A program made the position numbers and the translations under genes. Positions 2,994 through 55,110 of a stretch of 55,110 nucleotides of DNA are shown in pieces. Below the pieces are notes generated by a model. It searched no databases, was not told where the DNA came from, and was given only the letters and a program-made list of their open reading frames with translations. Location of the stretch: the NCBI GenBank assembly GCA_015492515.1, contig WGEZ01000110.1, positions 1-55,110 on the forward strand, written 5' to 3'. The stretch comes from Nitrospirota bacterium (GTDB lineage Bacteria; Nitrospirota; Thermodesulfovibrionia; Thermodesulfovibrionales; JdFR-85). Numbering within the stretch: position 1 is the first letter of the stretch; every line of letters begins with the position of its first letter.

Positions 2994-3242
2994 ATGACGA
3001 TGGTGGACGAACCGGTGGCGGTCATCGCCTCCTTCGGCGGCAGGGGAGGGATGAGGCCCCTCAGGTTCAGATGGAACGGCAGGGTGATCCATGTGAAGGG
3101 CGTCACCTACAGGTGGGTCCGGCGGGAAGGCTCCAGGAGGCTTCACCTCTTCTCCGTCACCGACGGCGGCACCCTCTACAGCCTCTGCTTCGATCCCGCC
3201 GGGCTGAGCTGGAGGCTCGAGGCGGTGGAGACGGAGATATAG
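2994..3242 (+). CDS. Hypothetical 82-aa protein encoded between lexA and dinB
   Basis: SD GAGGAGAGG at 2979-2987 lies 6 nt before the ATG. The gaps to lexA (25 nt) and dinB (15 nt) are short and all three genes share a strand. I recognised no family. Confidence 0.55.
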   Translation: MTMVDEPVAVIASFGGRGGMRPLRFRWNGRVIHVKGVTYRWVRREGSRRLHLFSVTDGGTLYSLCFDPAGLSWRLEAVETEI

Positions 3243-3257
3243 AAGAACCCAGACGCC

Positions 3258-4513: not shown

Positions 4514-5884
4514 ATGGCCGATATACTGATCGTCGATGACGAGCCCCTGCAGAGGAGCATCCTCAAGACGATCCTCACCGAGGAGGGGCACGAGGTCCAC
4601 GAGGCCGGCTCCGGCACAGAGGCCCTCAAGGTGATGCGGAAGTTTCCCCCCCAGGTGGTGCTGACCGACCTCAGGATGCCGGACATGGATGGACTGCAGC
4701 TTCTGGAGAGGATAAACTCCCTCCAGAAGCAGCCTCCCACGGTGCTGATAATGACCGCCTACGGTACGATATCCTCCGCTGTCGAGGCGATCAAGAAGGG
4801 GGCCTTCGACTACCTGACGAAACCCCTCGACAAGGACGCCCTCCTCCTGAAGGTGAGACAGGCCCTCGAGAGGAACGAGCTGCTGAGGCAGAACATGGAG
4901 CTCCAGGACGCGCTCTGCGAGAGGTTCCGCATAGAGGGCATCGTGGGCAGGTCGGAGAGGATGGTCCACCTCATCGAGACCCTCAGGAAGGTCTCTCCCA
5001 CCAATGCCACGGTGTTGATAGTCGGCGAGAGCGGCACCGGCAAGGAACTCGTGGCAAAGGCGATCCACTACAACAGCCCGAGAAGGGGGAGGTCCTTCAC
5101 GGCGATAAACTGCGCATCCATACCGGAGAACCTGCTGGAGAGCGAGCTCTTCGGCTTCGAGCCCGGCGCGTTCACGGGCGCCACGTCCAGGAAGAAGGGG
5201 CTCATCGAACTCACCGCCGGCGGCACCCTCTTCCTCGACGAGATAGGGGACATGCCCTTGAATCTCCAGGCGAAGCTCCTCAGGGTACTTCAGGACGGCG
5301 AGGTGAGGAGGCTCGGCGGGAGGGAGTCTTTCAGGGTGGACATGAGGGTCGTGGCCGCCACCCACCAGGAGATCGAGGAGCTCATAGGGAAGGGCCTCTT
5401 CAGGGAGGACCTCTACTACAGGCTGAAGGTGGTGACCATAAAGCTCCCGCCCCTCAGGGAGCGGAAGGAGGACATCCCCCTGCTGGCCGGGTATTTCCTG
5501 AAGAGATACAACGAGGAGTTCGGCAAGAGGATCAAGGGGATCGAGGAGAGGGCCCTTGAGGCCCTTCGCGATTACCACTGGCCCGGCAACATCAGACAGC
5601 TCCAGTCCGTCATAGAGAGGGCCGTGATAATGGCCGACTCCGACACGATCACCTACGACGACATCAGGGAGGAGCTGACCGGGATGGCGCCGAAGGGGGT
5701 CATGGAGATAGAGATCCCCAGTGAGGGGATCGTCTTCGAGGAGCTCGAGAAGGCGCTCATGAGGAAGGCGATGCGGATGTCGAACAACGTGGCGAAGAGG
5801 GCGGCGGAGCTCCTCGGCATGAGCTACAAGACCTTCTGGTACAGGTGGGAGAAGTTCGGCCTCGGCAAAGAGGGTGAAAAATAA
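4514..5884 (+). CDS. sigma54-dependent response regulator (NtrC/Fis family)
   Basis: Receiver domain (ILIVDDE...LTDLRMPDMDG), AAA+ domain (GESGTGKE, GAFTGA, ESELFG) and a C-terminal Fis-type HTH are present. I chose the ATG at 4514 because it is the Met that opens the receiver domain. Confidence 0.9.
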   Translation: MADILIVDDEPLQRSILKTILTEEGHEVHEAGSGTEALKVMRKFPPQVVLTDLRMPDMDGLQLLERINSLQKQPPTVLIMTAYGTISSAVEAIKKGAFDYLTKPLDKDALLLKVRQALERNELLRQNMELQDALCERFRIEGIVGRSERMVHLIETLRKVSPTNATVLIVGESGTGKELVAKAIHYNSPRRGRSFTAINCASIPENLLESELFGFEPGAFTGATSRKKGLIELTAGGTLFLDEIGDMPLNLQAKLLRVLQDGEVRRLGGRESFRVDMRVVAATHQEIEELIGKGLFREDLYYRLKVVTIKLPPLRERKEDIPLLAGYFLKRYNEEFGKRIKGIEERALEALRDYHWPGNIRQLQSVIERAVIMADSDTITYDDIREELTGMAPKGVMEIEIPSEGIVFEELEKALMRKAMRMSNNVAKRAAELLGMSYKTFWYRWEKFGLGKEGEK

Positions 5885-5993
5885 CACCTTTCTGCTATAA
5901 TACCCCATTCCGCAGTGCCGGCTGTACCTCAGGGGTCGCCTTTTAACTCCCGGGGCGGAACGCTCAAAACTCAAATCAAACTCAGGAGGTGCA

Positions 5994-7166
5994 ATGTCTA
6001 CAGGAATCGAACTTGCCGACAGGGTGAAGAACCTTCCACCTTACCTCTTTGCAAGGATCGACCAGATGAAGGCCGAGGCCCTCAGGCGGGGTGCAGACCT
6101 GATCGACATGAGCATCGGAGACCCCGACATGCCCACCCCGGCCCACATCGTGGAGGCGATGAAGAGGGCCGTGGAGAAGCCCGAACATCACCGCTACCCA
6201 TCCTACGCCGGGATGTACTCCTTCCGCGAGGCCGTTGCAAGGTGGTACGAGAGACGGTTCAGCGTGAAGCTCGACCCTGAGAGCGAGGTCCTCTCACTCA
6301 TCGGCTCTAAGGAGGGCATAGGACATATCCCCCTCGCCTTCGTCAACCCGGGGGACGTCGTGCTCTGCCCCTCGCCCGCATACCCCGTCTACTCCATAGC
6401 CACCCTCTTCGCCGGTGGCGAGCCCCACTACATGCCCCTGACCGAGGACAGGGGCTTCCTGCCCGATCTCACCACCCTGCCCGAGGAGGTGCTGGGACGG
6501 GCGAAGATGATCTTCCTCAACTACCCGAACAACCCAACGAGCGTCTCGGCGGGTGAGGACTTCTTCAGGGAGGTGATCGACATGGCCCGCAGGCATGGGA
6601 TCATCGTCTGCCATGACGCGGCCTACTCCGAGATCTACTTCGACGGCAAGAGGCCCCTCAGCTTCCTCCAGGTGGAGGGCGCCATGGACGTGGGCGTCGA
6701 GTTCCATTCCCTCTCGAAGACCTACAACATGACGGGCTGGCGGATCGGCTTCGCCGTGGGCAACAGGGAGGTGATCCACGGGCTGGGCAGGATAAAGACC
6801 AACATCGACTCCGGTGTCTTCCAGGCGATACAGGAGGCCTCCATAACCGCCCTCGACACCGACGACGGCCTGCTCTCCGGAATGAGGGCGACCTACCAGG
6901 CCAGAAGGGACATACTCTACGAGGGGCTCAGGGGGTTGGGGATGGAGGTCGTCAAGCCCGAGGCCACCTTCTACCTCTGGGCGAAGGTGCCCGGAGGGTT
7001 CACCTCCGAGGGGTTCGCAGTACACCTCCTTGAGAAGGCGGGCGTGCTCGGCACCCCCGGTAACGGCTTCGGCGATCCCGGAGAGGGCTACATCAGGTTC
7101 GCCCTCACCGTGCCGGAGGAGAGGCTCAGGGAGGCGGTGGAGAGGATCGGGGAGGCCGTCCGTTGA
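5994..7166 (+). CDS. dapL: Class I aminotransferase resembling the short form of LL-diaminopimelate aminotransferase
   Basis: VKNLPPYLFARID, NYPNNPT and the PLP-lysine motif SLSKTYNMTGWRIGF are present. SD AGGAGG precedes the ATG. Substrate specificity is inferred only. Confidence 0.7.
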   Translation: MSTGIELADRVKNLPPYLFARIDQMKAEALRRGADLIDMSIGDPDMPTPAHIVEAMKRAVEKPEHHRYPSYAGMYSFREAVARWYERRFSVKLDPESEVLSLIGSKEGIGHIPLAFVNPGDVVLCPSPAYPVYSIATLFAGGEPHYMPLTEDRGFLPDLTTLPEEVLGRAKMIFLNYPNNPTSVSAGEDFFREVIDMARRHGIIVCHDAAYSEIYFDGKRPLSFLQVEGAMDVGVEFHSLSKTYNMTGWRIGFAVGNREVIHGLGRIKTNIDSGVFQAIQEASITALDTDDGLLSGMRATYQARRDILYEGLRGLGMEVVKPEATFYLWAKVPGGFTSEGFAVHLLEKAGVLGTPGNGFGDPGEGYIRFALTVPEERLREAVERIGEAVR

Positions 7167-26614: not shown

Positions 26615-28777
26615 TCAACGCGGCTTTTTTCCTTCCACCTGCCTCTTCAGGTCCTCCGCAAGGGCCTTCCCTATGGTGGGCACGGCCGCCAGCTCTCCGG
26701 CCGTCGCCTCCCTGATCTCCTTGAGCCCCCTGAATCCTGCATCGAAGAGCCTCCTCGCCCTCACCCTCCCGATCCCCCGGAGGGTAACGAGCTGCAGGAG
26801 CTCCTCCCTCACTCCGTAGACGACCCTCGTCCTGAGGAGGGAGACGGCCCTCACCGCCTCCCTCAGCCTGAAGACCCTGCCGATCTCTGCCGCTGAGTAG
26901 AGGAGCCAGTCGGAGAGCTCCACGAGGGTCCGGAGATCACCGGGTCCGATCCCGAAGCGGCTCACCATCCTCTCCTCCGGCGTCTCCTCTATCCACTGAA
27001 GGAGCAACGACGCCGTCTTCATCTCCGCCAGCAGCTCCTCCGAGGGGTACCGCTCCTCCTCCGGAAGGAGCAGCTCCCCTGCGTGGGCGTAGAAGAGCTC
27101 GATCATCTCGTCGTAATCACCCTTCCTGAGGGAGAGCACCATCATGTCCGGCGTATGGGCTATCATCTGGAAGATCGGCAGCGGCCCGCTCCCGTCGAAG
27201 CGGTGGAGGGCGTCCCTCAGCACCACGGCGGTGAGGGGATCGATGTACAGCTCCGAGACCCTCCGGCCGAACCTCGTGGCCGCCAGGGCCGCTCCCTCCC
27301 GGACCATCATCCCCTCGGCCTCGAGAAACCCCGTTATCTCCTCCGCTATGGAGGCGAGCCGTCCGGCTCCGCTCTGGAAGGCGAAGAAGGTCTTCTCCAG
27401 GAACCCTGCGAGCTCGGCATGGGTCGTCGTGAAGAGTCCTGCCACGGATGCGAGCACGTGGGTCCTGAGGGCGGGCTCGCTGCCGAGTCTGGACTCTATC
27501 CTCTCCAGCTCACCGGTGATGTACTTCCTGAAGAGGAACTCCTCATCCCTCTTGCTCCGTGCGACGATCACTGCCTCTCCGTACTCATCGAGCCCCGGCC
27601 TTCCGGCCCTCCCGGACATCTGTTTTATCTCGATGGCCGCCAGGGGGTGGATGCCGAGACCTGTCTCGTACCTCCACCAGTCCCTGATGACCACCCTCCT
27701 TGATGGGAGGTTCAGCCCCATGGCGAGGGTGGTGGTGGCGGCTATCAGCTTTATGCCGCCGGCCCTGAAGGCATCCTCTATGAGCCTCCTCTGGGCATGG
27801 TTGATACCCGCATGATGGAAGGCCACACCGCAGGCCACGCACTCGGCGAGCCTCCTGCAGATCCGTGTCGGTTCAGCGGTGACAGCCAGGACCCTTCCGG
27901 AGAGCTCCCTGAGGGAAAGCCTCTCCGCCTCTGAGAGGAGGCCTGTCACGTACGGAGAGGCGTTCCTGGCGACCGTCTCCGTTGATTTCCGCGTGTTCAC
28001 GAATACGAGCGCCTGCCCTCCGTCCCTGATGGTCTCGAGCGCGAGGTTCACCGCATCCCAGCGGCTCTCCCTCGGCACCCACCTGACGGTGCCGTCGTTG
28101 AAGATCTCTGCACCGTTGTAGAAGACCCCCTCCCTGAGGGGCACCGGCCTCCAGTCCGCCTCCACGAGCCTGGCGTTGAGCCACCCCGCGATCTCCACAG
28201 CATTCGGTATCGTGGCGCTCAGGGCTATCAGCCTGGGCTCCGGACTCATCAGCCTGAGGCGGGTGAGAACGACCTCGAGGGTCGGCCCCCTGTGAGGGTC
28301 TCCGAGGAGGTGTATCTCGTCGGCGATCACGAGGCCCACGTCCCTCAGCCAGGGGGCCCTGTGCCTGACGAGCGAGTCCATCTTCTCGTTGGTGGATATG
28401 ATCAGGTCAGCCCGTTGAAGCCACGGCTCCGCGCTGTCGTAGTCACCCGTGCTCTGGATCACCCTCACGCCGGCGGCCCTGTACTTCCTCGTGAACTCAT
28501 CGTACTTCTCCCTTGCCAGCGCCCTGAGGGGCACGAGGTATATCACCTTCCCTCCCCCCTCGAGGAAGACCTTCAGCATCGCCAGCTCCGCAATGAGGGT
28601 CTTCCCCGAGGCTGTGGGGGCAGCCACCACGAAGGGGGCCTCTCCGCTCAGGAGGCCCGCCTCAACGGCCATAGCCTGAGGGGGATAGAGGTCCCTCACC
28701 CCTGTGGAGGCAAGGACCTCCACGAGTCGCCTCGACCCTCCATATGCCTCCAGTACCTCAATATCCACGGCCTGCAT
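26615..28777 (-). CDS. hel308: Hel308/Ski2-like DExH DNA helicase (archaeal-type architecture)
   Basis: LYPPQAMAV, Walker A AAPTASGKT and DEIH (ADEIHLLGD) are present. Motif VI is QMSGRAGRPG. A ratchet-like central region is followed by a C-terminal HhH (LRGIGRVRARRLFDAGF). Confidence 0.85.
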   Translation of the reverse strand: MQAVDIEVLEAYGGSRRLVEVLASTGVRDLYPPQAMAVEAGLLSGEAPFVVAAPTASGKTLIAELAMLKVFLEGGGKVIYLVPLRALAREKYDEFTRKYRAAGVRVIQSTGDYDSAEPWLQRADLIISTNEKMDSLVRHRAPWLRDVGLVIADEIHLLGDPHRGPTLEVVLTRLRLMSPEPRLIALSATIPNAVEIAGWLNARLVEADWRPVPLREGVFYNGAEIFNDGTVRWVPRESRWDAVNLALETIRDGGQALVFVNTRKSTETVARNASPYVTGLLSEAERLSLRELSGRVLAVTAEPTRICRRLAECVACGVAFHHAGINHAQRRLIEDAFRAGGIKLIAATTTLAMGLNLPSRRVVIRDWWRYETGLGIHPLAAIEIKQMSGRAGRPGLDEYGEAVIVARSKRDEEFLFRKYITGELERIESRLGSEPALRTHVLASVAGLFTTTHAELAGFLEKTFFAFQSGAGRLASIAEEITGFLEAEGMMVREGAALAATRFGRRVSELYIDPLTAVVLRDALHRFDGSGPLPIFQMIAHTPDMMVLSLRKGDYDEMIELFYAHAGELLLPEEERYPSEELLAEMKTASLLLQWIEETPEERMVSRFGIGPGDLRTLVELSDWLLYSAAEIGRVFRLREAVRAVSLLRTRVVYGVREELLQLVTLRGIGRVRARRLFDAGFRGLKEIREATAGELAAVPTIGKALAEDLKRQVEGKKPR

Positions 28778-29097: not shown

Positions 29098-30003
29098 ATG
29101 GCCAGACCTCTGAGGCTCTCCTTCGAGAACGCTGTCTATCACATAACCGCAAGGGGCAACCGGAAGGAGGAGATCTTCTACAGTGACGACGACAGGCGCT
29201 CCTTTCTGGAGAAGATGGAGGAGACGTGGGGGAAATACTCCATAGTATGTTACGCCTACTGTCTGATGAGCAACCATTACCACCTCTTTATAAAGACCCC
29301 TCTTGCCAATATATCAGAAGCGATGCATTACCTGAACGCCTCTTACGCAAACTGGTTCAGGGTAAGGCACGGGATCGTCGGGGCGGTGTTTCAGGGCAGA
29401 TACAGATCGATCATTGTTGATGAAGACAGATACGCTGTTCAGCTCTCCGCCTATATCCATGCAAATCCCGTGCGGGCGGGTATGGTGAAGGACCCTCTGG
29501 AGTATCCCTGGAGCAGCTATCCTGAGTATATGGGCAGGAGGAATCCCCTGGCGAGGCTCGAGACGGGCTTCATCCTGGGACAGTTTGACGATGACCTCCG
29601 GAGGGCACGGAGGAGGTACAGGGCCTACGTCATCAGAAATCTCTATGCAAAGGACCCGGTTAAGGAGGCATACAAGGGCGTCGCCCTCGGTGGGGAGGGG
29701 TTCATAGAATCGATAAAGGAAAGGATGCGATCCATTGGGCGGAGCAGAGAGATCGCCGCGACAAGGGATGCAGAGACGTATACGGCGGAGGAGATCATCC
29801 AGCAGGTGATGGAGCGGGCCTCGGTCAGCCGCGATGAGATATTCGACCGCAGACGTGGGAACATCTATAGACAAATGACGCTCTATCTGCTGAAGAGATA
29901 CACGCCGATGAGCCTGAGGGAGATAGGGGAGATGTTCGGGATGGATTATGCCGCTGTGTCTCAGGCCTGCAGGAGGTATGAGGAGAGGATAAGAGGGGGA
30001 TGA
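29098..30003 (+). CDS. HUH/Y1 tyrosine transposase (IS200-like, REP-associated RAYT-like) with a C-terminal DnaA-C-like HTH
   Basis: HUH motif SNHYHLFIK, catalytic Tyr motif LSAYIHANPVRAG, and a C-terminal HTH (LLKRYTPMSLREIGEMFGMDYAAVSQACRR) are present. Confidence 0.8.
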   Translation: MARPLRLSFENAVYHITARGNRKEEIFYSDDDRRSFLEKMEETWGKYSIVCYAYCLMSNHYHLFIKTPLANISEAMHYLNASYANWFRVRHGIVGAVFQGRYRSIIVDEDRYAVQLSAYIHANPVRAGMVKDPLEYPWSSYPEYMGRRNPLARLETGFILGQFDDDLRRARRRYRAYVIRNLYAKDPVKEAYKGVALGGEGFIESIKERMRSIGRSREIAATRDAETYTAEEIIQQVMERASVSRDEIFDRRRGNIYRQMTLYLLKRYTPMSLREIGEMFGMDYAAVSQACRRYEERIRGG

Positions 30004-35838: not shown

Positions 35839-37029
35839 TCAGGGAAGCCGTGTAAGGCCGTGCTTGATCTTCCAGAGGTAGTACTTCTCGAAGCCGGCCT
35901 TGAGCCACCTGTAATGGATCCCCGCCTTCAGCTTGGCCTCCTCCCGCGGCGGAAGGACGGGGCTGGCCTTCATGTAGGCCGCCGTGTTGCCCATGTCCAT
36001 CAGGCAGACGGCGCTGAGCGGCCCGGTCTCGGGGGTGGGTCTGCCGAGGATCTCCGCTGCTATGGTCTTCGCTGCATCCTTTGCCATCACCACGGTCATG
36101 TAGCCTGTCTTCGGGACACCTGTAGGCACCGGTGTGGGCTCAGGCGGCGCCATCGCCACAGCCACACCCACGGAGAGGATGTTCCTGTGGTCTCTGTGCC
36201 TGTAGTTTTCATCGACGGGTATGAACCCCTTCGGGTTGCCCAGGTGGGAGACCGCCTTCACACCGGTCATCGGAGGGGCGAACATGGAGAGCTTGAAGGG
36301 GAGCCTCGTCCCGTCGGCAAGCCTCACCTCATCGGGCGTGAACTCCTCCACCGAGATGTTCGCCGCCACCTTGATATCCCTCGCTGCAAAGACGTCCTCC
36401 ATCATCCTCCTGGAAGTGCCGAGACCTCCTATCCCGAAGTGACCGACGTAGGGCTCGGAGGTGACGAAGGTGATCGGGACCCTGTGCCGGATCCTCCTCC
36501 TCCTCAGCTCGGCGTCCACCTCGAAGACGTACTCATAGGCCGGGCCGAAACAGCTCACACCCTGCACAGAGCCTACCACGACGGGCCCGGGGTCTTCGAG
36601 CAGGCCTTCCCATGCCCTGCGGCACCTGAGGGCCTGCTCAAGGAGAAAGATGCATTCCGTGTACCCCTGCTCAGGACCGAGCCCCGGCACCGCTGAGAAG
36701 GCGAGGGCGGGGCCTGTGGCTATGACGAGGTAGTCATACTCGATCTCTCTCGTCCTCGTGCTCACCTTCGAGGCTGCGGCGTCGACACCCGTCGCCTCCT
36801 CATGGATGAACTCTATCCCTTTGGGCTCGAGGATACCGGCAAGGGGGAGGGTTATATCCTCGGGCCTCCTCCATCCCATGGAGACCCACGGGAGGGAGGG
36901 GATGAATACGAACCTCTCAAGGTCGCACAGGAGTGTTACGCGGGCCTTACCGCCGAGATGCCTCCTCAGCTCGAAGGCCGCCGTGAGCCCCCCGAAGGAC
37001 CCTCCCAAGACGACTATCCTTGCAGCCAT
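35839..37029 (-). CDS. sqr: Sulfide:quinone oxidoreductase-like flavoprotein
   Basis: FAD motif IVVLGGSFGG is present. Conserved redox Cys contexts are GVSCFGPAYE and SAVCLMDMG. The C-terminal amphipathic helices are typical of SQR. Confidence 0.8.
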   Translation of the reverse strand: MAARIVVLGGSFGGLTAAFELRRHLGGKARVTLLCDLERFVFIPSLPWVSMGWRRPEDITLPLAGILEPKGIEFIHEEATGVDAAASKVSTRTREIEYDYLVIATGPALAFSAVPGLGPEQGYTECIFLLEQALRCRRAWEGLLEDPGPVVVGSVQGVSCFGPAYEYVFEVDAELRRRRIRHRVPITFVTSEPYVGHFGIGGLGTSRRMMEDVFAARDIKVAANISVEEFTPDEVRLADGTRLPFKLSMFAPPMTGVKAVSHLGNPKGFIPVDENYRHRDHRNILSVGVAVAMAPPEPTPVPTGVPKTGYMTVVMAKDAAKTIAAEILGRPTPETGPLSAVCLMDMGNTAAYMKASPVLPPREEAKLKAGIHYRWLKAGFEKYYLWKIKHGLTRLP

Positions 37030-37070: not shown

Positions 37071-37355
37071 TCAGAACGCGCCCACGACCTTCTCCTCCTC
37101 CTCCGCCATCAGCTCTATCAGTTCGTCCCAGTCGATCAGCTTCAGCCCCCGCTCGAGCTCCTCCTCCCTCAGTCCCCTGAGGTTGACATCCTCCTCCACT
37201 GCACAGGCGGTGCCGCAGAAACCGTCAAGCTGCTCCCTCAATGCAAAGTAGACCCCGTTCTGCAGAAGCACTATATCAGACGACATGTCCCTTGCGAGCT
37301 TCAGGGCCCTCCTGCCTTCCGATGTGTCGGGCCCGCTCTTTATGATCGTAAGCAT
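37071..37355 (-). CDS. dsrH: DsrH/TusB-like sulfur relay protein
   Basis: MLTIIKSGPD...IVLLQNGVY. The start is set at the ATG at 37355, which follows AGGAGG. The ORF-track GTG lies 9 nt upstream. Confidence 0.75.
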   Translation of the reverse strand: MLTIIKSGPDTSEGRRALKLARDMSSDIVLLQNGVYFALREQLDGFCGTACAVEEDVNLRGLREEELERGLKLIDWDELIELMAEEEEKVVGAF

Positions 37356-37367
37356 CCCCTCCACCTC

Positions 37368-37718
37368 CTAAAATATCATGGTCCTGTCCGATTCCTTCAC
37401 CGCCTCGGAGAGCTCGTAGCCGTTGACGATCCTGACCCCTTCGATGACATCCTCCGGCTCGAGACCGAACTCCCTCACCGAACCCCTGTCGGCGATGACG
37501 TCTCCGCCCATCTCGATCACGTCCTTCAGGGACTCACCGAGGTTGGTGTATCCGGTATCGCCTTCAGACTGCCCCTTCTTCGCCACCATCACCCCGGCGT
37601 CACAGAGGATCAGCCTCACCTCCATATCCTCGCCGATGGCGCCGAGGGCGTGCCTTACGGCCTCGGCGGCCTGAACGTCACCGTAGGGCGGCCTCGTCAA
37701 TATCACTGAAAGCCTCAT
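37368..37718 (-). CDS. dsrF: DsrF/TusC-like sulfur relay protein
   Basis: MRLSVILTRPPYG...RLILCDAGV has the DsrE/F fold pattern. SD AGGAGG lies upstream. Confidence 0.78.
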   Translation of the reverse strand: MRLSVILTRPPYGDVQAAEAVRHALGAIGEDMEVRLILCDAGVMVAKKGQSEGDTGYTNLGESLKDVIEMGGDVIADRGSVREFGLEPEDVIEGVRIVNGYELSEAVKESDRTMIF

Positions 37719-37758
37719 CTCATCCTCCTGTGAAAGACCATCGTCGTTTCCGTCAACC

Positions 37759-38109
37759 TCAGAGATTGAGCCACACGTCGGTCTCGGCCATCGTCTTGAA
37801 GAGCCCCTTCAGCGAGCCGACCTCTGTGCCGTCAAGGTAGTCCTCTTTCGCCGCACGGCGATAGTTTATGCAGCCGCCTCAGAGATAGACCTTCAACCCC
37901 CTGGCTATCAGCCCGGCGAAGAGATCGCCGGCATGGGGGATCCCCTTCGCCTTCTGACCCTTCAGGAAGCAGTAGACACCATCACCCGATGCGATCAGGT
38001 TGACGCGGTGGCCCTTCCCCAGGGCGCTCTCCGCAACCCTGACGGCCGTGAGCGTGTTCTCGTGTGTATAGGGTGCAGTGGTGAGAAATATCGTGAACGT
38101 CTTCGCCAT
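37759..38109 (-). CDS. dsrE: DsrE/TusD-like sulfur relay protein with a predicted selenocysteine (in-frame TGA at 37879-37881)
   Basis: The ORF track stops at ...GLKVYL*. The same frame continues GGCINYRRAAKEDYLDGTEVGSLKGLFKTMAETDVWLNL* to 37759. The TGA aligns with the TusD/DsrE active-site Cys (NICVAAALRRG). The full length of 116 aa is normal for the family. Confidence 0.7.
37845..37864 (-). promoter_or_regulatory. Candidate bacterial SECIS hairpin
   Basis: The RNA CUAUCGCC-GUGC-GGCGAAAG forms 8 bp with one A.A mismatch and a GU-containing loop. It starts 14 nt after the in-frame UGA. Confidence 0.4.
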
Positions 38110-38125: not shown

Positions 38126-38500
38126 TCAGATCTCCCTTGCCGAGGGGCCCCGGCCCTTCCGGCGCCTCCTCTTTCCCGGGTATTTCCCCCTCCTGGTCAC
38201 CGGGCAGCATGCCGGTGCCGGGAGTGCCTCGGGATAGTCCCTTCCGAGCAGCTCGATGATCTCGGGGATGATGGGGTCGACGAGATAGTAACACCTCAGC
38301 CTGCCGTCCATGTAGTAGTCGATGACACCGTGGTTCCTGAGCAGCCCGAGATGCTGGGAGATGTTGGGCTGGCTCACATCGAGAAACTCCTCGAAGTCAC
38401 TCACACACTTCACGCCCTTCATGAGCTCCTCGAGTATCCTGATCCTGACGGGATGGGCTATGATCCTCAGCAGCTCCACCTTCTGCCCGAGTGACCTCAT
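38126..38500 (-). CDS. ArsR/SmtB-family regulator with two-cysteine, SqrR/BigR-like spacing
   Basis: The wHTH reads AHPVRIRILEEL...VSQPNISQHLGLLRNHGV. Cys32 (KCVSDF) and Cys98/99 (PACCP) are 66 residues apart. There is no ELCVCDL metal site. Confidence 0.8.
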   Translation of the reverse strand: MRSLGQKVELLRIIAHPVRIRILEELMKGVKCVSDFEEFLDVSQPNISQHLGLLRNHGVIDYYMDGRLRCYYLVDPIIPEIIELLGRDYPEALPAPACCPVTRRGKYPGKRRRRKGRGPSAREI

Positions 38501-38691: not shown

Positions 38692-41771
<3,080 letters not shown>

Positions 41772-50760: not shown

Positions 50761-51990
50761 TCAGAATTCATACCTCAGCTGAATATAGAGGTTGTCGTCC
50801 TCATCGAGCTGTCCGAACCGGCTCCAGGCCTCCCCGCCTCCGAAGATGACCGCACCGGCGGCTGCCCATACACTGTCCGTAAAGCTGTATCTCACCTCAG
50901 GGTTTATCAGGTAATCGCCCTCCGAGGGGCTCCAGAAGGAGAAGAAGGAGAGCCTCAATGTCTGGTGCATGAGGAGCTGGGTGAGCCTCAGCGATACGAG
51001 CTGGCTCAGCCTCCTGTCCTTCGGCAGCCCGGCGGGGAGGTGCCCTTCATAGGCCCCGTAGCGGTGCATGTACTCTGCATAGTACTGGACGGCAGCGGTG
51101 AGGTCCTCCCGCAGCTGCCTCTGGTAGCCGACGAGGAACCTCGTCTGGGAGTTCGGCACCACCGGGTCGGAGCCGTCGCGGTCCTGCCTCGAGTCGTAGT
51201 AGCCTGCCTCAAGGCTCAGGATGCCGTCGAAGGCCCTTCCCTGAAGACTCACGCCGTAAACAGAGAGTTCAGGATAAAAGAGCGTCACCCCCGAGGGGCT
51301 GCGGGGCATCATCGAGGGCTGGCGGAAGAAACCCCTGTACAGATAGAGCGATGTGTCAAAGCCGGCCAGATCCCCGTAGACCCTGACGGCCAGTTCCGTA
51401 TTGTCAATGCTTGATGAGGGCTCTTCCTCCTCCCTCTCCGCAACCATGGGCATCGGATCATACAGCCAGAACCTCCTTGCATCGGGAAAGTTGCTGGGCT
51501 CGAAGAAGGGTATCACCACGACCTCCATGGAAACAGGCCCGGGATATATCCCCACCTTGAGGCCGTCGACACCCTTCTTCAGGTATTCGAGGGGTCTGCC
51601 GGAGAAGAAGGCCTCATAGTCCTTCGGGAATACGTCGTTGATGAAGAGGAGGTCTCCGAGGCCCCAGGTGATTACCTGTCTCCCTGCGCGGAGATCGAAG
51701 ACCTCCGCCGTGTAGTCGAGATAGAGCTCCCTGAACTCAGGGTCTGCCTCCTCCTGTATATGGTCGTAATAGAGGTCGGTCTTTGAAAAGAGCCTCAGTG
51801 CCTCTCCGCTCAGATCGAGCCTCAACTGCAGTCTCTCCTCCGCCCATTTGAGATCACCTCCGTCGGGATTGCTCCTTGTGACGGAGTAGGAGTAGTTGGC
51901 CTGCAGGAACCCGTTCAGGGAGAGATCCGCACCGTAGAGGGGTCCGGAGAGGAGGGAAAGGACCGCCATCAGCACCCAGGTCTTCTTCAT
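50761..51990 (-). CDS. Outer-membrane beta-barrel protein (porin-like, uncharacterised)
   Basis: A signal peptide (MKKTWVLMAVLSLLSGPLYG), alternating beta-strand pattern and C-terminal LRYEF (aromatic beta-signal) are present. Confidence 0.6.
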   Translation of the reverse strand: MKKTWVLMAVLSLLSGPLYGADLSLNGFLQANYSYSVTRSNPDGGDLKWAEERLQLRLDLSGEALRLFSKTDLYYDHIQEEADPEFRELYLDYTAEVFDLRAGRQVITWGLGDLLFINDVFPKDYEAFFSGRPLEYLKKGVDGLKVGIYPGPVSMEVVVIPFFEPSNFPDARRFWLYDPMPMVAEREEEEPSSSIDNTELAVRVYGDLAGFDTSLYLYRGFFRQPSMMPRSPSGVTLFYPELSVYGVSLQGRAFDGILSLEAGYYDSRQDRDGSDPVVPNSQTRFLVGYQRQLREDLTAAVQYYAEYMHRYGAYEGHLPAGLPKDRRLSQLVSLRLTQLLMHQTLRLSFFSFWSPSEGDYLINPEVRYSFTDSVWAAAGAVIFGGGEAWSRFGQLDEDDNLYIQLRYEF

Positions 51991-52009
51991 CCCTTCCCCT
52001 GTCCGCCTG

Positions 52010-52798
52010 CTACCTTATCCACTTCTTCGGCGGCCTTCTGAGGAACCTCTCCGAGAAGAGGCTGTCCTTGATGCCGATGTCGTAGTCCACGGTCACAAAC
52101 CTCACCTCTGTCCTGTGTCCGCTCCGGACGTTCCGCATGGTCCTTTCCGTGACGGTGGGGAACCCCTCTATCTCCTTGACCTCATCCGCTGTGAAGACCC
52201 GGTGGAGCTGGCCCTTGAGGTCGTAGTACTCCTCCTTCAGGGGGAGGAAACTCCCCTTCTCGATCCAGGAGAGCCTGTAGAGGTAGTCCCCGTCCTCCCC
52301 CTTCGGGGTGCTCCTGATCACGAAGCAGTCCCTGCCGTCAAGGGGTTCTTCCCTGAGGAGTTCATGGTTGTCGTCCTCAATATCCCTTCCCGATATATCC
52401 TCGTAGGTGAAGTCCGAGCCCACGAAGCTCGACCTCTTGTCCCTTGCAGCGATCCTCCTGACCATATCTATGGCAGGCACGTAGAGCCATCTGTCGTCGT
52501 CCTTCTCGGGGTACTTGTACACCATGAAGGTCATCCCCTTGACGTCAGCGGGCCTGAAGAAGTAGATGAAGTACTTCTGCTCTCCACCGGGGGCGCCGTA
52601 GTTCTTCCTGAGCATCGTGAGCTCCCTTATCCTCTCTCGACCGCTCTTGTCTATCAGCTTCATCACCACCCTGGCCTTGAAGTCCCTGCCCGGGTACAGG
52701 AAGGCCGCCTGTGACCTCTTCATGATATCCTTCGCCGTGACGGCGGATGCCTGAAGAGGAAGAAGCATCACCAGTAAGACAACGGCAAACCTTGACAT
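52010..52798 (-). CDS. LolA-like outer membrane lipoprotein-sorting protein family
   Basis: A signal peptide is followed by DIMKRSQAA...RELTMLRKNYG...WLYVPAIDMVRRIA...FVGSDFTYEDI. The start is set at the ATG at 52798, after GAGGAGG. Confidence 0.65.
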   Translation of the reverse strand: MSRFAVVLLVMLLPLQASAVTAKDIMKRSQAAFLYPGRDFKARVVMKLIDKSGRERIRELTMLRKNYGAPGGEQKYFIYFFRPADVKGMTFMVYKYPEKDDDRWLYVPAIDMVRRIAARDKRSSFVGSDFTYEDISGRDIEDDNHELLREEPLDGRDCFVIRSTPKGEDGDYLYRLSWIEKGSFLPLKEEYYDLKGQLHRVFTADEVKEIEGFPTVTERTMRNVRSGHRTEVRFVTVDYDIGIKDSLFSERFLRRPPKKWIR

Positions 52799-52883
52799 CT
52801 TGACCTCCTCGATCTGCTTCCGTTGTAAGGGATTATAGACCATCCCGAAGGCCTCCGGCGGGACGGTGGTTACCGCCCTTCCG

Positions 52884-55110
52884 TCAACCCCTCCGCTCCG
52901 TCTTCAGCAACACCCCCCTGAAACCGCCGATCAGTGCAGGCAGAAAGACCAGGGTGGCGATGCCTGCAAAGAATGCGAGGGAGCCGAAGAAGAGGCCCAC
53001 CGTCACATAGGGGGTGAGGCTTGCGATCATCATCGGAGAGAAGCCGAGGGCCACGACCAGGGCGTTCCTGAATATCGCCAGCGCGGGCTCCCCTCCCATC
53101 GTCCAGTCCATCGCCTCCTGAAGCCCCCCCTTTTCCCTGAACTTATCCCTGAACCTGTGGAGGAAGTGTACTGCAAAATCGACCCCCAACCCCAGGGCGA
53201 GGGTCGAGCAGACCGCGATCGGCATGTCGTACTCCTTTCCTGCAAAGCCGATGAGCCCGTAGCTGAAGACGACGGAGAAGCCCAGGGGGAGCATACCCAC
53301 GAGCCCCCACCAGAAGGATCGGAACTGAATGATCAGCAGGATGAGTATGACCCACCATGAGCCCATGGTCGCCTCGAGCATCCCCACCACCATGAGCCTC
53401 TGCCACGTTATGTTCAGGTAGGGCAGCCCGGACCACCGGAGCTTCACGCCCTCAGGCGGGGGATGCCCCTCTGTGTATCCCTGGAGATCCTTCACCACGG
53501 CGGACATGTCCTTGTTGTCGCCGGACCTGAGCTGGACCCATATGTTCGCCTTTCTGAAGGAGTAGTCGACGAAGTTGTCAAGCTCCTCAGGCGGGGAGGA
53601 CATCAGGAAGAGGAAGAGATACTGGCCGATCGTCTTCTTCTCCCCCGGGAGCGACTCATAGGCCTTCTCCTCGTCATGGAGCACGTAGTTTATCCTCTTC
53701 ACTATATCAGCCACGGATGTGGTCTTCCCGACAAGGGGGTTGGCCTCGAGGTGCCTCTGGAGCCCTTCCATGTAGCCCATCACCTCCGGGCTCTTTACCG
53801 CCTCCTCCGAACCGCCGTCCACGACGAGATAGGAGATGTAGGTGCCGCCGATGAGCCTGTTCAGCTCTGCATCGGCGACCCTGATGGGGTGGTCCTTCTT
53901 GAACCACTTCACGGGGTTGTCGTTGACAGTGAGTGTTGTGACACCGTATACAGCCACTGCAAGGAGGACTGCTCCGGCTGCAACAAGGCCCCTGCTCTTT
54001 CCGAGGGAGAACCTGCCGAGCCTGCCCAGGAGCGGGCTCCCTTCCGCTCCCTCCTGAATCGGCTTCCTCTCCCTCAGGAGGACGAGTGCGGCCGGGATGA
54101 ACGTCATGGACAGCAGCCATGCGACCATGACACCGGAGGCGACGAAGAGCCCGAAGACCCTCACCGGCGGGATGTCCGCCCAGGCGAGCATGGAGAAACC
54201 GACCGCCGTGGTCACGGATGTGAAGAACATGGGCTTCACCAGCCCGTCAAAGACCTGGAGGACGGCCTTCTTTCTGTCTCTGAGTTTCGGCAGCTTTTCA
54301 TAGAAGTCGCTCAGTATATGCACGCTGTCGCATATGGCGATGGGCATCAGGAAGACGGGGATCATGGATGACATTATATGCACCGTGAAGCCGAGCCCGA
54401 TCATCGCACCCATCGTCCATACCACGGAGAGCATGGCGAGGATCATGGGTGGGATGACGAGGGAGACCCTCCTGAAGATGATGAAGAGCACCAGCATCAA
54501 CACCCCGCCCGCCATCGGTGCGAAGAGAGCCATCTGGAGGAACATCTCGTAGCCGAAGGTGTCCTCGGCAAGGGGGAGCCCTGCCATGTAATACCTCTCC
54601 GGGCCTTCCTCCTTCTCGTAGAGGGCCCTGATCCGCCTGCCCACGTCGTGGGCTATCTCCTTGCTCTCTATCGGTACGTATATGGCGGCACCCCTGCCGT
54701 CTGAGGATACGAGCCTGTCCCTGAAGAGGGGGTTGTCGAGGACCTCTCTCTTGAGGGCCTCCATACCCTCCTCGGTCTCCGGCACCTCGACCATCGGCGG
54801 CCTTACATTCAGAACCCCTCCGCTCGCCACCACGTTGTTCGTCACCGTGAGGCTGACCACATCGTCGCTTATAACACCCTTTATCTTCAGGACCCCGTCG
54901 GTGATCCTCTTTATCCTCTCGAGGCTGTCCCTCTGGAATATCCCGTCATCCCTCACTATGCCCAATACGATGAGCTCCTCGATGCCGAACTCCTTCTTCA
55001 CCTCGTTGTGGAAGACCCTTATCGGCTCGTCCTCCCTGAGCATGTTTTCAGGGTCTGTGTCTATCTTTATCCTCGGAAACTGGATGCCGAACAAGAGGGT
55101 CAGGACCACC
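52884..55110 (-). CDS. RND/MMPL-superfamily exporter (HpnN-like); N-terminus lies off the right edge
   Basis: Two blocks of about six TM helices alternate with periplasmic loops. The frame stays open to the window edge. Confidence 0.8.
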   Translation of the reverse strand, partial: VVLTLLFGIQFPRIKIDTDPENMLREDEPIRVFHNEVKKEFGIEELIVLGIVRDDGIFQRDSLERIKRITDGVLKIKGVISDDVVSLTVTNNVVASGGVLNVRPPMVEVPETEEGMEALKREVLDNPLFRDRLVSSDGRGAAIYVPIESKEIAHDVGRRIRALYEKEEGPERYYMAGLPLAEDTFGYEMFLQMALFAPMAGGVLMLVLFIIFRRVSLVIPPMILAMLSVVWTMGAMIGLGFTVHIMSSMIPVFLMPIAICDSVHILSDFYEKLPKLRDRKKAVLQVFDGLVKPMFFTSVTTAVGFSMLAWADIPPVRVFGLFVASGVMVAWLLSMTFIPAALVLLRERKPIQEGAEGSPLLGRLGRFSLGKSRGLVAAGAVLLAVAVYGVTTLTVNDNPVKWFKKDHPIRVADAELNRLIGGTYISYLVVDGGSEEAVKSPEVMGYMEGLQRHLEANPLVGKTTSVADIVKRINYVLHDEEKAYESLPGEKKTIGQYLFLFLMSSPPEELDNFVDYSFRKANIWVQLRSGDNKDMSAVVKDLQGYTEGHPPPEGVKLRWSGLPYLNITWQRLMVVGMLEATMGSWWVILILLIIQFRSFWWGLVGMLPLGFSVVFSYGLIGFAGKEYDMPIAVCSTLALGLGVDFAVHFLHRFRDKFREKGGLQEAMDWTMGGEPALAIFRNALVVALGFSPMMIASLTPYVTVGLFFGSLAFFAGIATLVFLPALIGGFRGVLLKTERRG

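What the first reader, a model, noticed from the sequence alone, without database searches (positions are those of the whole stretch)
37759..38109. In-frame UGA at the active-site cysteine column of DsrE/TusD: a predicted selenoprotein split by the ORF track
The ORF track ends the DsrE/TusD homolog after 76 aa (...GLIARGLKVYL*) at a TGA (37879-37881, minus strand). The same frame continues for 39 codons (GGCINYRRAAKEDYLDGTEVGSLKGLFKTMAETDVWLNL) to a second TGA at 37759-37761. This restores a family-typical length of 116 aa.

The internal TGA aligns with the persulfide-carrying Cys of TusD/DsrE. E. coli TusD Cys78 sits in ...LNICVAAALRRG; here the context is ...LKVYL-U-GGCINYRRA.

Fourteen nt downstream is a hairpin, CUAUCGCC-GUGC-GGCGAAAG (37845-37864). 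Its apical GU-containing loop is at a distance compatible with bacterial SECIS elements.

To my recollection, DsrE-like proteins have appeared in computational selenoproteome surveys, so the family may not be new. A Sec-DsrE inside a complete dsrEFH-sqr operon under a persulfide-type regulator is still unusual and would normally be mis-annotated as a truncated gene.
Basis: partly seen in the sequence, partly recalled or inferred. Interest (0 to 1): 0.75.

Follow-up and report, generated by a model that had tools for sequence, protein, structure and literature searches.

The report
Selenocysteine-containing DsrE-like sulfur-relay protein gene
A small sulfur-carrier gene that databases annotate as truncated at a TGA stop is almost certainly a full-length protein with selenocysteine in place of its catalytic cysteine; this selenoprotein family is already catalogued, so the new part is a large, misannotated Nitrospirota branch and its operon context.

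Summary
On the minus strand a 76-codon ORF (38109-37882) ends at TGA 37881-37879, and the frame continues for 39 codons to a second TGA at 37761-37759.

The TGA is almost certainly a selenocysteine codon:
- All 82 unique orthologous sequences have TGA at this codon, while the real terminator varies among TAG, TAA and TGA.
- The downstream codons are under the same purifying selection as the upstream ones (dN/dS about 0.10 against 0.085).
- Full-length homologs carry Cys at exactly this column (…KVYL-C-GGC…).
- The column aligns with Cys78 of E. coli YchN and A. vinosum DsrE.
- A 20-nt hairpin 14 nt after the TGA coincides with the strongest synonymous-site constraint in the gene.
- The two distinct Cys-form genes examined lack the hairpin; sister clades in two other phyla have it with different stem sequences.

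In five related contigs, a selD gene with its own in-frame TGA lies in the same cluster. Sec machinery could not be checked in the window's own genome.

The protein is the first gene of a conserved arsR–dsrE(Sec)–dsrF–dsrH–sqr operon. "DsrE-like protein, UxxC" has been a catalogued selenoprotein family since 2005, so this is a new member of a known kind. Interest is moderate.

The parts
37759..38109 (-). Complete gene for a 116-aa DsrE/YchN-family selenoprotein (ATG 38109; Sec77; true stop TGA 37761-37759). An AAGGAGG ribosome-binding site lies at 38120-38114.
   Evidence: the read-through product matches PF02635 over its full length; 87 orthologs have the same architecture; the AlphaFold model of a Cys-form homolog has the DsrE/DsrF/YchN fold (TM 0.6-0.69) and needs the C-terminal 39 residues.
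37879..37881 (-). In-frame UGA, codon 77, predicted selenocysteine; first residue of the U-G-G-C (UxxC) motif.
   Evidence: TGA in 82 of 82 unique orthologs, while the terminator varies TAG/TAA/TGA. Cys at this column in P0002, P0005, P0011 and wider relatives. It aligns to YchN Cys78 and A. vinosum DsrE Cys78.
37870..37872 (-). Cys80 codon (TGC), the resolving or partner cysteine of the UxxC motif.
   Evidence: Invariant Cys in alignment A2, with TGC/TGT synonymous variation.
37845..37864 (-). SECIS-like hairpin CUAUCGCC-GUGC-GGCGAAAG, 14 nt after the UGA. The apical loop starts 22 nt after the UGA and contains G-U.
   Evidence: lowest synonymous diversity of the whole gene (0.19 against a median of 0.61; CGC and GCG third positions invariant); 87% of cells paired against 47-58% for slid controls; absent from the Cys-form genes examined; equivalent hairpins with different stems in the Rokubacteria and Desulfobacterales-type clades.
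37368..37718 (-). DsrF/TusC-like subunit gene (116 aa) with no cysteine at the catalytic column.
   Evidence: PF02635, E 1e-15. TIGR03010 gives 28.8 bits against a cutoff of 94. Conserved next to the Sec gene in other loci.
37071..37364 (-). DsrH/TusB-like subunit gene (97 aa).
   Evidence: PF04077, E 1.5e-9. TIGR03011 gives 41.1 bits against a cutoff of 49.2. Conserved position.
35839..37029 (-). Sulfide:quinone reductase gene (396 aa).
   Evidence: E 1e-102 to Aquifex aeolicus SQR 3HYV over the full length, with the GVSCFGPAYE and SAxCxxDxG cysteines conserved. Follows dsrH in most loci.
38126..38500 (-). ArsR/SmtB-family transcription regulator gene directly upstream, with four conserved cysteines (C32, C70, C98, C99).
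   Evidence: HTH_5; NF033788 at 70 bits against a cutoff of 55; BigR at 45 bits against a cutoff of 155; the four Cys are conserved in at least 67 of 69 homologs. Present upstream of the Sec gene in nearly all loci.

Best explanation
Gene 38109-37759 (minus strand) encodes a 116-residue DsrE/YchN-family protein. Codon 77, a UGA, is translated as selenocysteine.

Decoding (inferred). The hairpin 14 nt downstream (37864-37845) acts as a bacterial SECIS element. It would recruit SelB carrying Sec-tRNA(Sec) to the ribosome as it reaches the UGA. The 76-aa product in public annotation is a gene-calling artefact.

Position in the protein (shown by alignment; the structural placement comes from a model of moderate confidence). 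Sec77 sits at the end of strand beta-4, at the column of the sulfur-carrying Cys78 of DsrE and YchN. It forms a U-G-G-C redox motif with Cys80.

Function (inferred from family knowledge and gene context, not shown). The protein is the catalytic 'E' subunit of a DsrEFH/TusBCD-like complex, made with the products of the two following genes. It would accept sulfane sulfur produced by the co-transcribed sulfide:quinone reductase, as a Se-S (selenopersulfide) intermediate that Cys80 or a downstream partner could resolve. Expression would be controlled by the cysteine-rich ArsR-type regulator.

Shown here: the recoding signature, the homology, the Cys/Sec pairing, the hairpin conservation and the operon conservation.
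For: 1. TGA is present at codon 77 in 47/47 metagenome and 41/41 genome orthologs, that is 82 of 82 unique sequences. The real terminator is TAG/TGA/TAA = 22/16/9 and TAG/TAA/TGA = 19/15/7 in the two sets.
2. Purifying selection is equal on both sides of the TGA. dN/dS is 0.085 upstream and 0.104 downstream. Diversity by codon position downstream is 0.17/0.12/0.50. Similarity collapses after the second stop.
3. Full-length homologs have Cys at this column, encoded TGC/TGT: KVYL-C-GGCLGYRR. Wider relatives carry LCGTC, ACGVC and VCKTC.
4. The column aligns with YchN Cys78 (1JX7) and A. vinosum DsrE Cys78 (hhalign probability 79%, E 1.6e-5).
5. Codons 78-80 (G, G, C) are conserved as amino acids with free third positions, and there is no start codon between them and the TGA. 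Ribosomes must therefore read through.
6. The hairpin is the most synonymously constrained 6-codon window of 106 in the gene. It is 87% paired against 47-58% for slid controls. The Cys-form genes lack it. The Rokubacteria and Desulfobacterales-type Sec clades have hairpins at the same distance with different stems (loops AGGG and GGUCU; L101 z = -2.97).
7. TGA terminates 17 of 21 identified genes in the window, so the genetic code is standard.
8. In five related contigs, SelD passes the TIGR00476 cutoff (365 bits against 125). It sits in the same cluster and has its own in-frame TGA at the Cys17 position.
9. The literature catalogues 'DsrE-like, PF02635, UxxC' as a selenoprotein family (PMC1088965, PMC1794560, PMC13188914). 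It also reports complete selABCD in Thermodesulfovibrio genomes (PMC5389517) and selB/selC in Nitrospirae (PMC8124441).
10. The operon arsR-dsrE(U)-dsrF-dsrH-sqr(-MMPL) is conserved in most of about 95 loci. The SQR is genuine.
Against: - No selA, selB, selC or selD lies in the 55-kb window. The rest of this genome could not be reached, and its assembly could not be identified.
- No tRNA-Sec was found in about 1 Mb of fetched flanks.
- Within the Nitrospirota clade the hairpin shows no two-sided compensatory change. RNAalifold gives only -2.6 kcal/mol.
- The window's own hairpin has an A·A mismatch and is not thermodynamically exceptional (-7.7 kcal/mol; z = +0.45 for the 46-nt segment).
- No Rfam family matches.
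- The Cys-form control rests on only two distinct sequences.
- There is no protein-level evidence.
- The functional part (selenopersulfide relay from SQR) is entirely inference.
- The three subunits score below the curated TusBCD/DsrEFH cutoffs.
Confidence: 0.87

Rival explanations
1. The UGA is recoded through the SelB/SECIS route, but the residue inserted is partly or wholly cysteine. It would be delivered by a tRNA-Sec-like tRNA-Cys (selC*) of the kind described in Thermodesulfovibrio, Nitrospirae and Deltaproteobacteria. The protein would then be Sec or Cys depending on selenium supply.
For: [quoted passage not shown] It shows experimentally that a UCA-anticodon selC* tRNA can translate the opal codon of a selD gene as Cys. 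Cys is clearly functional at this column in homologs.
Against: According to the same paper, selC*-containing genomes also have the complete selA/B/C/D apparatus. No selC* or any other unusual tRNA was seen in the window or the flanks. If Cys were the intended residue, TGC/TGT would be a one-step change, yet 82 of 82 orthologs keep TGA. SelD with its own TGA in the same cluster argues for selenium use.
Confidence: 0.06
2. The module is primarily a selenium-handling system rather than a sulfide-oxidation accessory. The Sec/Cys UxxC site would carry selenium (or Se-S species) toward selenophosphate synthetase or toward detoxification and export. The SQR-type flavoprotein would act on the chalcogen substrate. 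The Sec reading of the codon is unchanged; only the physiological role differs.
For: - SelD(U) lies inside the cluster in two independent arrangements: upstream in L015/L028, downstream in L038/L043/L044.
- The sub-clade with downstream SelD lacks SQR. In L043 it has an extra DsrE-like gene, a SAM methyltransferase and a DnaJ-like gene instead.
- TauE/SafE transporters are adjacent in five loci.
- YedF, a SelD-linked selenium-metabolism protein, has a DsrE-like domain with the same CGxC motif (PMC5322559).
- NCBIfam holds an SQR-like 'Nterm_to_SelD' family and a selenoprotein SQR subtype.
Against: - Most loci, the window included, have no SelD nearby.
- The window's SQR is a close, full-length homolog of characterised sulfide:quinone reductases with all catalytic Cys. 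It scores far below the SelD-associated families (48 bits against a cutoff of 310).
- Selenoprotein genes often sit next to sel genes without sharing a substrate.
Confidence: 0.12
3. The TGA is a genuine stop. The cell makes a 76-residue N-terminal DsrE fragment, and the downstream 39 codons are either a decaying remnant or a separately translated micro-ORF.
For: This is how every public annotation treats it: 76-aa 'DsrE family protein', e.g. GBE00564.1 and NOX19909.1. Some pipelines call the C-terminal piece as a 36-38-aa ORF (P0238, P0244). One genome (L100) has a 10-nt deletion just after the TGA that breaks the frame.
Against: - The downstream region has dN/dS 0.10 and stays in frame in 87 orthologs with no indels, which excludes decay.
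- Codons 78-80 are conserved as amino acids, and there is no start codon between them and the TGA. The window has ATA at the only position where some orthologs have ATG/GTG.
- The stop is always TGA and never TAA or TAG.
- A 76-aa fragment lacks two strands and a helix of the fold.
- Cys-form homologs are single 114-116-aa proteins.
Confidence: 0.02

Closest known systems
'DsrE-like protein' selenoprotein family (PF02635, redox motif UxxC), found in the Sargasso Sea selenoproteome (Zhang et al. 2005, PMC1088965), listed for Desulfovibrio vulgaris (PMC1794560) and in the 2026 review (PMC13188914; representative WP_014524487.1)
   Same: Same Pfam domain. Same UxxC motif (U-G-G-C here). Sec paired with Cys homologs. 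Bacterial SECIS-type stem-loop with a G in a small apical loop just after the UGA. A related clade with TGA at the same column exists in Desulfobacterales/Deltaproteobacteria.
   Different: In the passages I read, the published entries are catalogue lines with no operon context or function. Here the protein is the first gene of a conserved arsR-dsrE(U)-dsrF-dsrH-sqr-MMPL cluster in Nitrospirota. The clade has at least 82 distinct sequences and 42 species-level genomes, all annotated as truncated.
DsrEFH of Allochromatium vinosum (PDB 2HY5) and TusBCD of E. coli: heterohexameric sulfur-relay complexes whose E/D subunit carries sulfur on Cys78
   Same: Three consecutive genes of the E, F and H types (PF02635, PF02635, PF04077). 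Only the first has a reactive residue at the Cys78 column, and that column aligns with the Sec. The fold matches DsrEFH chains.
   Different: All three score below the curated equivalog cutoffs: 19 against 89, 29 against 94, and 41 against 49 bits. The active site is a two-residue UxxC motif rather than a lone Cys. The partner is SQR rather than DsrC/DsrAB or TusA/TusE/MnmA. The catalytic residue is Sec.
E. coli YchN (PDB 1JX7), a DsrE-family protein of unknown function with a C-x-x-C motif
   Same: Best sequence match among solved structures, over the full length (E 1.5e-4). LCKTC aligns with L-U-GGC, and the first Cys is residue 78. Same fold.
   Different: From my own knowledge of entry 1JX7, not checked here: YchN is a stand-alone homo-oligomeric protein. 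The protein here sits in a three-subunit operon and uses Sec.
YedF (TIGR03527), a SelD-linked selenium-metabolism protein with a C-terminal DsrE-like domain carrying CGxC (PMC5322559)
   Same: DsrE-like domain with a C/U-G-x-C motif. Genomic association with SelD in some lineages.
   Different: YedF has an N-terminal SirA/TusA-like domain and is a single two-domain protein. The protein here has no such domain, and its usual neighbour is SQR, not SelD. No direct sequence comparison to YedF was made.

Membership tests
Bacterial selenoprotein (UGA-Sec with SECIS) | In-frame UGA conserved among orthologs, never replaced by another stop codon | tested here: met
   82 of 82 unique orthologous sequences have TGA. 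The true terminator varies TAG/TAA/TGA. Two further phyla have TGA at the same column.
Bacterial selenoprotein (UGA-Sec with SECIS) | Cys-containing homologs aligning exactly at the UGA column | tested here: met
   P0002, P0005 and P0011 read KVYL-C-GGC, with TGC/TGT codons. Many wider CxxC relatives exist. YchN Cys78 and DsrE Cys78 align to the same column.
Bacterial selenoprotein (UGA-Sec with SECIS) | Protein-coding conservation continues downstream of the UGA in the same frame | tested here: met
   dN/dS is 0.104 downstream and 0.085 upstream. Third-position-dominated variation, no indels, and a Pfam match across the UGA.
Bacterial selenoprotein (UGA-Sec with SECIS) | Stem-loop immediately downstream of the UGA with a small apical loop containing G (criterion as quoted in PMC1088965) | tested here: met
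   Hairpin 37864-37845, with loop GUGC starting 22 nt after the UGA. Strongest synonymous constraint in the gene. 87% paired against 47-58% in controls. Different stems at the same place in other phyla; absent in the two distinct Cys-form genes examined. Weak points: no two-sided covariation within the clade, and modest stability in the window itself.
Bacterial selenoprotein (UGA-Sec with SECIS) | selA, selB, selC and selD present in the same genome | tested here: inconclusive
In five related contigs SelD, itself with an in-frame TGA, lies in the same cluster. The literature reports a complete apparatus in Thermodesulfovibrio genomes and selB/selC in a groundwater Nitrospirae lineage (PMC5389517, PMC8124441).
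Bacterial selenoprotein (UGA-Sec with SECIS) | Selenium demonstrated in the protein (75Se labelling or mass spectrometry) | not testable with these tools
   Needs an experiment.
Catalogued 'DsrE-like' selenoprotein family (PF02635, UxxC) | PF02635 domain with Sec in a UxxC motif | tested here: met
   PF02635 at 60.3 bits against a cutoff of 22.7. Motif U77-G-G-C80, with C80 invariant. Family definition from PMC1088965 and PMC13188914.
Catalogued 'DsrE-like' selenoprotein family (PF02635, UxxC) | Orthology to the published representatives (D. vulgaris; WP_014524487.1) | not tested
A Deltaproteobacteria/Desulfobacterales clade with TGA at the same column was found, which makes it likely.
TusD/DsrE sensu stricto (NCBIfam TIGR03012 equivalog) within TusBCD/DsrEFH | Score above the curated equivalog cutoffs for the E/D, F/C and H/B subunits | tested here: not met
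   TIGR03012: 19.3 bits against 89.25. TIGR03010: 28.8 against 94.15. TIGR03011: 41.1 against 49.2. PDB DsrE 2HY5_A aligns by sequence only over the N-terminal 45 residues.
TusD/DsrE sensu stricto (NCBIfam TIGR03012 equivalog) within TusBCD/DsrEFH | Reactive residue at the Cys78 column in the E/D subunit only; three-gene E-F-H arrangement | tested here: met
The DsrF-like protein has no Cys there. The E-F-H gene order is conserved.
   NF040642 BigR scores 45.4 bits against a cutoff of 155, so it is not met. The general ArsR/SmtB subfamily NF033788 is met (70 against 55). Four Cys are conserved in at least 67 of 69 homologs. The ligand cannot be deduced.

The most novel reading that the evidence does not exclude
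The conserved arsR–dsrE(Sec)–dsrF–dsrH module, found in Nitrospirota, Rokubacteria/Methylomirabilia and Desulfobacterota, is a dedicated chalcogen relay whose Sec-Cys (UxxC) site carries selenium or mixed Se–S species. It would link a flavoprotein (SQR or another pyridine-nucleotide disulfide oxidoreductase) to selenophosphate synthetase and/or to an MMPL-type exporter. That would make it an undescribed selenium delivery or detoxification pathway, not just a sulfide-oxidation accessory with a Sec upgrade.
Probability: 0.12. Interest if true: 0.75.

Novelty: new member of a known kind. Interest (0 to 1): 0.45.

Why it matters
1. Annotation. Every public record I saw for this gene is a 76-residue fragment: 117 of the 120 closest database proteins end right after …KVYL, at the Sec column. 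The gene occurs in 42 species-level Nitrospirota genomes, and there are sister clades in Rokubacteria and Desulfobacterota. A simple rule would correct them: TGA after …KV[YFD]L followed by G-x-C, plus the hairpin.

2. Biology. The finding places selenocysteine at the sulfur-carrying position of a DsrEFH-type relay that is co-transcribed with a genuine sulfide:quinone reductase. A selenopersulfide intermediate would be more nucleophilic and a better leaving group than a persulfide. This is a testable idea about how anaerobic Nitrospirota handle sulfide.

3. Selenium link. The occasional presence of a Sec-containing selD inside the same cluster hints at a connection between this relay and selenium metabolism that is worth testing.

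None of this overturns current understanding, because the selenoprotein family itself has been catalogued since 2005.

Tried and rejected
- Rfam at gathering thresholds over the whole window, and at E<=10 over 37700-37950, gave no SECIS or other relevant family.
- RNAalifold on 42 Nitrospirota sequences gave only a weak consensus (-2.6 kcal/mol) with no compensatory pairs. Support for the hairpin therefore rests on synonymous-site constraint, slid controls, the Cys-form control and cross-phylum comparison.
- Folding the window's 66-nt and 46-nt segments alone gave unremarkable z-scores.
- ARAGORN found no tRNA-Sec in the window or in about 1 Mb of fetched flanks.
The two 'SelB-like' hits turned out to be LepA and PrfC.
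- The window's source assembly could not be identified. The exact-sequence look-up of P0001 found nothing, and the species-representative genome collection holds no identical copy (best 84%). The selABCD test on the same genome was therefore not possible.
- Profile alignment to E. coli TusD covered only the N-terminal 45 residues. The claim about the TusD column thus rests on the DsrE and YchN alignments.
- A reassigned genetic code was rejected, because TGA ends 17 of 21 identified genes.
- A pseudogene or sequencing error was rejected, because the pattern is identical in 87 independent assemblies.
- A separately initiated C-terminal ORF was rejected: there is no start codon before the conserved G78-G79-C80, and the window has ATA where some orthologs have ATG.
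Full report
**1. The observation**

On the minus strand an ORF starts at ATG 38109, preceded by AAGGAGG at 38120-38114. It runs for 76 codons (…GLIARGLKVYL) to TGA at 37881-37879. The same frame continues without interruption for 39 codons (GGCINYRRAAKEDYLDGTEVGSLKGLFKTMAETDVWLNL) to TGA at 37761-37759.

With Cys substituted at the TGA, the 116-residue product matches the Pfam DsrE/DsrF-like family from end to end: residues 4-113 on profile positions 2-113 of 116, E 2.6e-16. All stated coordinates are right.

**2. Is the TGA read through?**

A search of 5.8 billion proteins returned more than a hundred close homologs, nearly all from Nitrospirota or Thermodesulfovibrionales MAGs. Of the 120 listed, 117 end right after …KVYL, at the Sec column (most are exactly 76 aa). 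The other three are full-length proteins of 114-116 aa that read …KVYL-C-GGCLGYRR….

I fetched the DNA of 50 metagenomic loci and 42 species-level genome loci. In every one of 87 orthologs (82 unique nucleotide sequences) codon 77 is TGA. The real terminator 40-42 codons later is TAG, TAA or TGA in comparable numbers.

The translated downstream stretch is strongly conserved, and similarity disappears after the second stop. Nei-Gojobori dN/dS is 0.085 upstream and 0.104 downstream of the TGA. Diversity by codon position downstream is 0.17/0.12/0.50, the signature of a translated sequence.

Codons 78-80 (Gly, Gly, Cys) are conserved as amino acids while their third positions vary freely. No start codon lies between them and the TGA, and the window has ATA at the only position where some orthologs have ATG or GTG. 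Translation must therefore come from upstream, through the TGA.

TGA terminates 17 of 21 confidently identified genes in the window, so the genetic code is standard and this codon needs a dedicated mechanism.

One genome (L100) has a 10-nt deletion right after the TGA that breaks the frame. This is a lone pseudogene or an assembly error.

**3. Which residue, and where in the fold?**

The Cys-form homologs use TGC or TGT at this column.

An exhaustive profile search of 1.84 billion representative proteins found 216 relatives. The full-length ones sampled mostly carry a C-x-x-C motif here (LCGTC, ACGVC, VCKTC and others).

The closest solved structure by sequence is E. coli YchN (1JX7). Its LCKTC aligns with L-U-GGC, and counting through the alignment the first Cys is residue 78.

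A profile-sequence comparison with A. vinosum DsrE puts the Sec column on Cys78, the sulfur-binding cysteine (hhalign probability 79%, E 1.6e-5). E. coli TusD aligned only over the N-terminal part.

An AlphaFold model of a Cys-form homolog (pLDDT 76) places the residue at the end of strand 74-77, before a short helix. The best structural matches are all DsrE, DsrF or YchN family members (TM 0.6-0.69). A 76-residue product would lack two strands and a helix.

**4. The hairpin**

In the pooled alignment, the 6-codon window with the lowest third-position diversity in the whole gene is codons +5 to +10 after the TGA. Its value is 0.19 against a median of 0.61, the lowest of 106 windows, and it coincides exactly with the hairpin. 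The CGC (Arg) and GCG (Ala) third positions are invariant.

The proposed 8-pair helix is formed in 87% of cells, against 47-58% when the 3' partners are slid by 1-3 columns. All changes are one-sided (G-C to G-U, U-A to U-G). There is no two-sided compensatory change within the clade, and RNAalifold gives only a weak consensus. One ortholog (L011) keeps a 6-7-bp hairpin through a register shift that accompanies an Ala-to-Arg change.

Two controls strengthen the case:
- The Cys-form genes encode the same Y-R-R stretch as TAT CGC AGA GTA ACT, which cannot form the hairpin. Only two distinct Cys-form sequences were available.
- Sister clades in other phyla have TGA at the same column. A Rokubacteria MAG (GCA_016179965.1) reads …VDL-TGA-GSCLRFRG. 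A contig carrying a gene product that NCBI labels Desulfobacterales reads …VDL-TGA-GTCFSFRG. Each has a hairpin starting at about the same distance but with an unrelated stem sequence: a 9-bp stem with loop AGGG (z = -2.97), and a 5-6-bp stem with loop GGUCU.

The apical loops start 18-22 nt after the UGA and contain G. [quoted passage not shown]

The window's own hairpin is modest. It has an A·A mismatch because of Tyr TAT and folds at -7.7 kcal/mol, which is not exceptional against shuffles. No Rfam family matches.

**5. Sec machinery**

The window contains only tRNA-Lys and tRNA-Arg, and no selA, selB or selD. I could not identify or reach the rest of its genome.

A rough tblastn probe found full-length SelD homologs within 1-2 kb of the Sec-DsrE gene in five contigs, in two different arrangements. 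The L028 protein passes the curated SelD equivalog cutoff (365 bits against 125).

In all five, SelD itself has an in-frame TGA in …SCAG-TGA-AAKF…. From my knowledge of E. coli SelD, this is the position of Cys17, three residues before Lys20. A stem-loop with a G-U-containing apical loop follows it. At least some organisms carrying this DsrE therefore encode a second selenoprotein, the selenium-activating enzyme, in the same cluster.

On the literature side, Mukai et al. (PMC5389517) found the complete selA/B/C/D apparatus in all selC*-containing genomes, which include Thermodesulfovibrio isolates. PMC8124441 describes selB/selC in a groundwater Nitrospirae lineage.

The same paper raises a rival: a tRNA-Sec-like tRNA-Cys that can insert Cys at UGA. 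I consider this a minor possibility. Its cited support is in the Rival explanations section of this report.

**6. Context and likely function**

The gene order arsR – dsrE(U) – dsrF-like – dsrH-like – sqr, usually followed by an MMPL/RND exporter module, is conserved in most loci long enough to show it.
- The SQR is genuine: E 1e-102 over the full length to Aquifex aeolicus SQR (3HYV), with the catalytic cysteines conserved.
- The F-like subunit has no cysteine at the catalytic column, as in DsrEFH and TusBCD.
- The three subunits score below the curated TusBCD/DsrEFH equivalog cutoffs. The system works like DsrEFH but is not an ortholog of it.
- The regulator is an ArsR/SmtB member with four nearly invariant cysteines, but it is not a BigR equivalog. 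'Persulfide-sensing' is plausible, not shown.

My best mechanistic reading is inferred, not demonstrated. SQR oxidises sulfide to sulfane sulfur. Sec77 of the E subunit attacks it to form a Se-S adduct. Cys80 or a downstream acceptor resolves the adduct. Sec gives a faster and more oxidation-tolerant relay than Cys.

A less likely but more novel reading is that the module handles selenium itself. The points in favour are SelD in the cluster in two lineages, a sub-clade that lacks SQR (in L043 it has an extra DsrE-like gene, a methyltransferase and a DnaJ-like gene next to SelD), TauE/SafE neighbours, and the CGxC DsrE-like domain of the SelD-linked YedF (PMC5322559).

**7. Comparison with what is known, and novelty**

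'DsrE-like protein, PF02635, UxxC' was listed as a new selenoprotein family in the Sargasso Sea survey of 2005 (PMC1088965). It was recorded in Desulfovibrio vulgaris in 2006 (PMC1794560) and appears in a 2026 review, which notes that the functions of such families remain largely uncharacterised (PMC13188914). The window protein has the same domain and the same motif, so the kind is known.

What I did not find described:
- the large Nitrospirota clade (at least 82 distinct sequences, 42 species-level genomes) and the Rokubacteria clade;
- the protein's role as the E subunit of a three-gene DsrEFH-like module next to SQR under an ArsR regulator;
- the SelD linkage.

Public annotations are uniformly truncated.

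I rate it a new member of a known kind, of moderate interest: solid, useful for annotation and for sulfur and selenium physiology, but not surprising to a selenoprotein specialist.

Noticed in passing
L028:6442-7488, L015:~2071-2910, L038:~1912-2922, L043:~2774-3817, L044:~5504-6547: A selenophosphate synthetase (SelD) gene lies inside or next to the Sec-DsrE cluster in two different arrangements. It has its own in-frame TGA (…SCAG-TGA-AAKF…, at the position of E. coli Cys17), followed by a stem-loop with a G-U-containing apical loop. Gene callers start it downstream of the TGA.
   Followed up: partly
window 50761-55109 (minus strand): An MMPL/HAE3-type RND transporter (52884-55109; it runs to the contig end), a 277-aa protein (52010-52843) and a 409-aa protein (50761-51990) are 65-78% identical to the three-gene module that directly follows the dsrEFH-sqr operon in 38-45 other loci. 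In the window the module sits about 13 kb away on the same strand, so the cluster has been split here. Its substrate is unknown.
   Followed up: partly
L101:6001-6366 (Rokubacteria MAG GCA_016179965.1) and L102:6001-6372: Sister clades in Rokubacteria/Methylomirabilia and Desulfobacterales-type bacteria have TGA at the same column (U-G-S-C and U-G-T-C) and the same arsR-E-F-H core. Their partners differ: in L101 an MMPL exporter with no SQR, in L102 a Pyr_redox_2/Pyr_redox_dim flavoprotein. All are annotated as 75-76-aa proteins.
   Followed up: partly
L100:4218-4557: One Nitrospirae MAG has a 10-nt deletion immediately after the TGA (CTCTGAGCTGAACTTTCGCC…), which shifts the frame of the C-terminal part. 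It is either a pseudogene or an assembly error, and it is the only exception among 88 loci.
   Followed up: no
L043:1229-2673; also L028:10799-11122, L034:~2712, L072:~9657, L084:~501, L093:~4954: A further small DsrE-family gene (107-118 aa) recurs next to the operon. In L043, from the sub-clade that lacks SQR, it is followed by a SAM-dependent methyltransferase and a DnaJ-domain protein before SelD.
   Followed up: partly
L028:7579-8268, L048:~930, L054:~175, L080:~2, L098:~8771: A TauE/SafE-family (sulfite-exporter-type) membrane protein gene sits just upstream of the Sec-DsrE gene in five loci.
   Followed up: no
window 35839-37029: The best NCBIfam hit for the window's SQR is 'type III sulfide quinone reductase, selenoprotein subtype' (NF049943), but at 94 bits against a cutoff of 525. 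It is not a member, and its ORF has no in-frame TGA. The hit shows that Sec-containing SQRs are a recognised family.
   Followed up: partly
window 29098-30003 (+): A 301-aa ORF combines an N-terminal REP-associated tyrosine transposase-like region (residues 6-139) with a C-terminal stretch resembling the DNA-binding domain of DnaA (residues 222-298).
   Followed up: no
window 26615-28777 (-): A 720-aa Hel308/Ski2-type DNA helicase matches models that are mostly archaeal (PRK02362, 820 bits against a cutoff of 887). This is unusual for a bacterial contig.
   Followed up: no
window 39635-41170 (-): Seryl-tRNA synthetase, the enzyme that also charges tRNA-Sec with serine, is encoded about 1.1 kb upstream of the arsR gene on the same strand, separated from it by a divergently oriented transporter-like ORF (38692-39642, not identified by any search here). 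This is probably coincidental. The serS call rests on reading the ORF translation; no family search was run on it.
   Followed up: no
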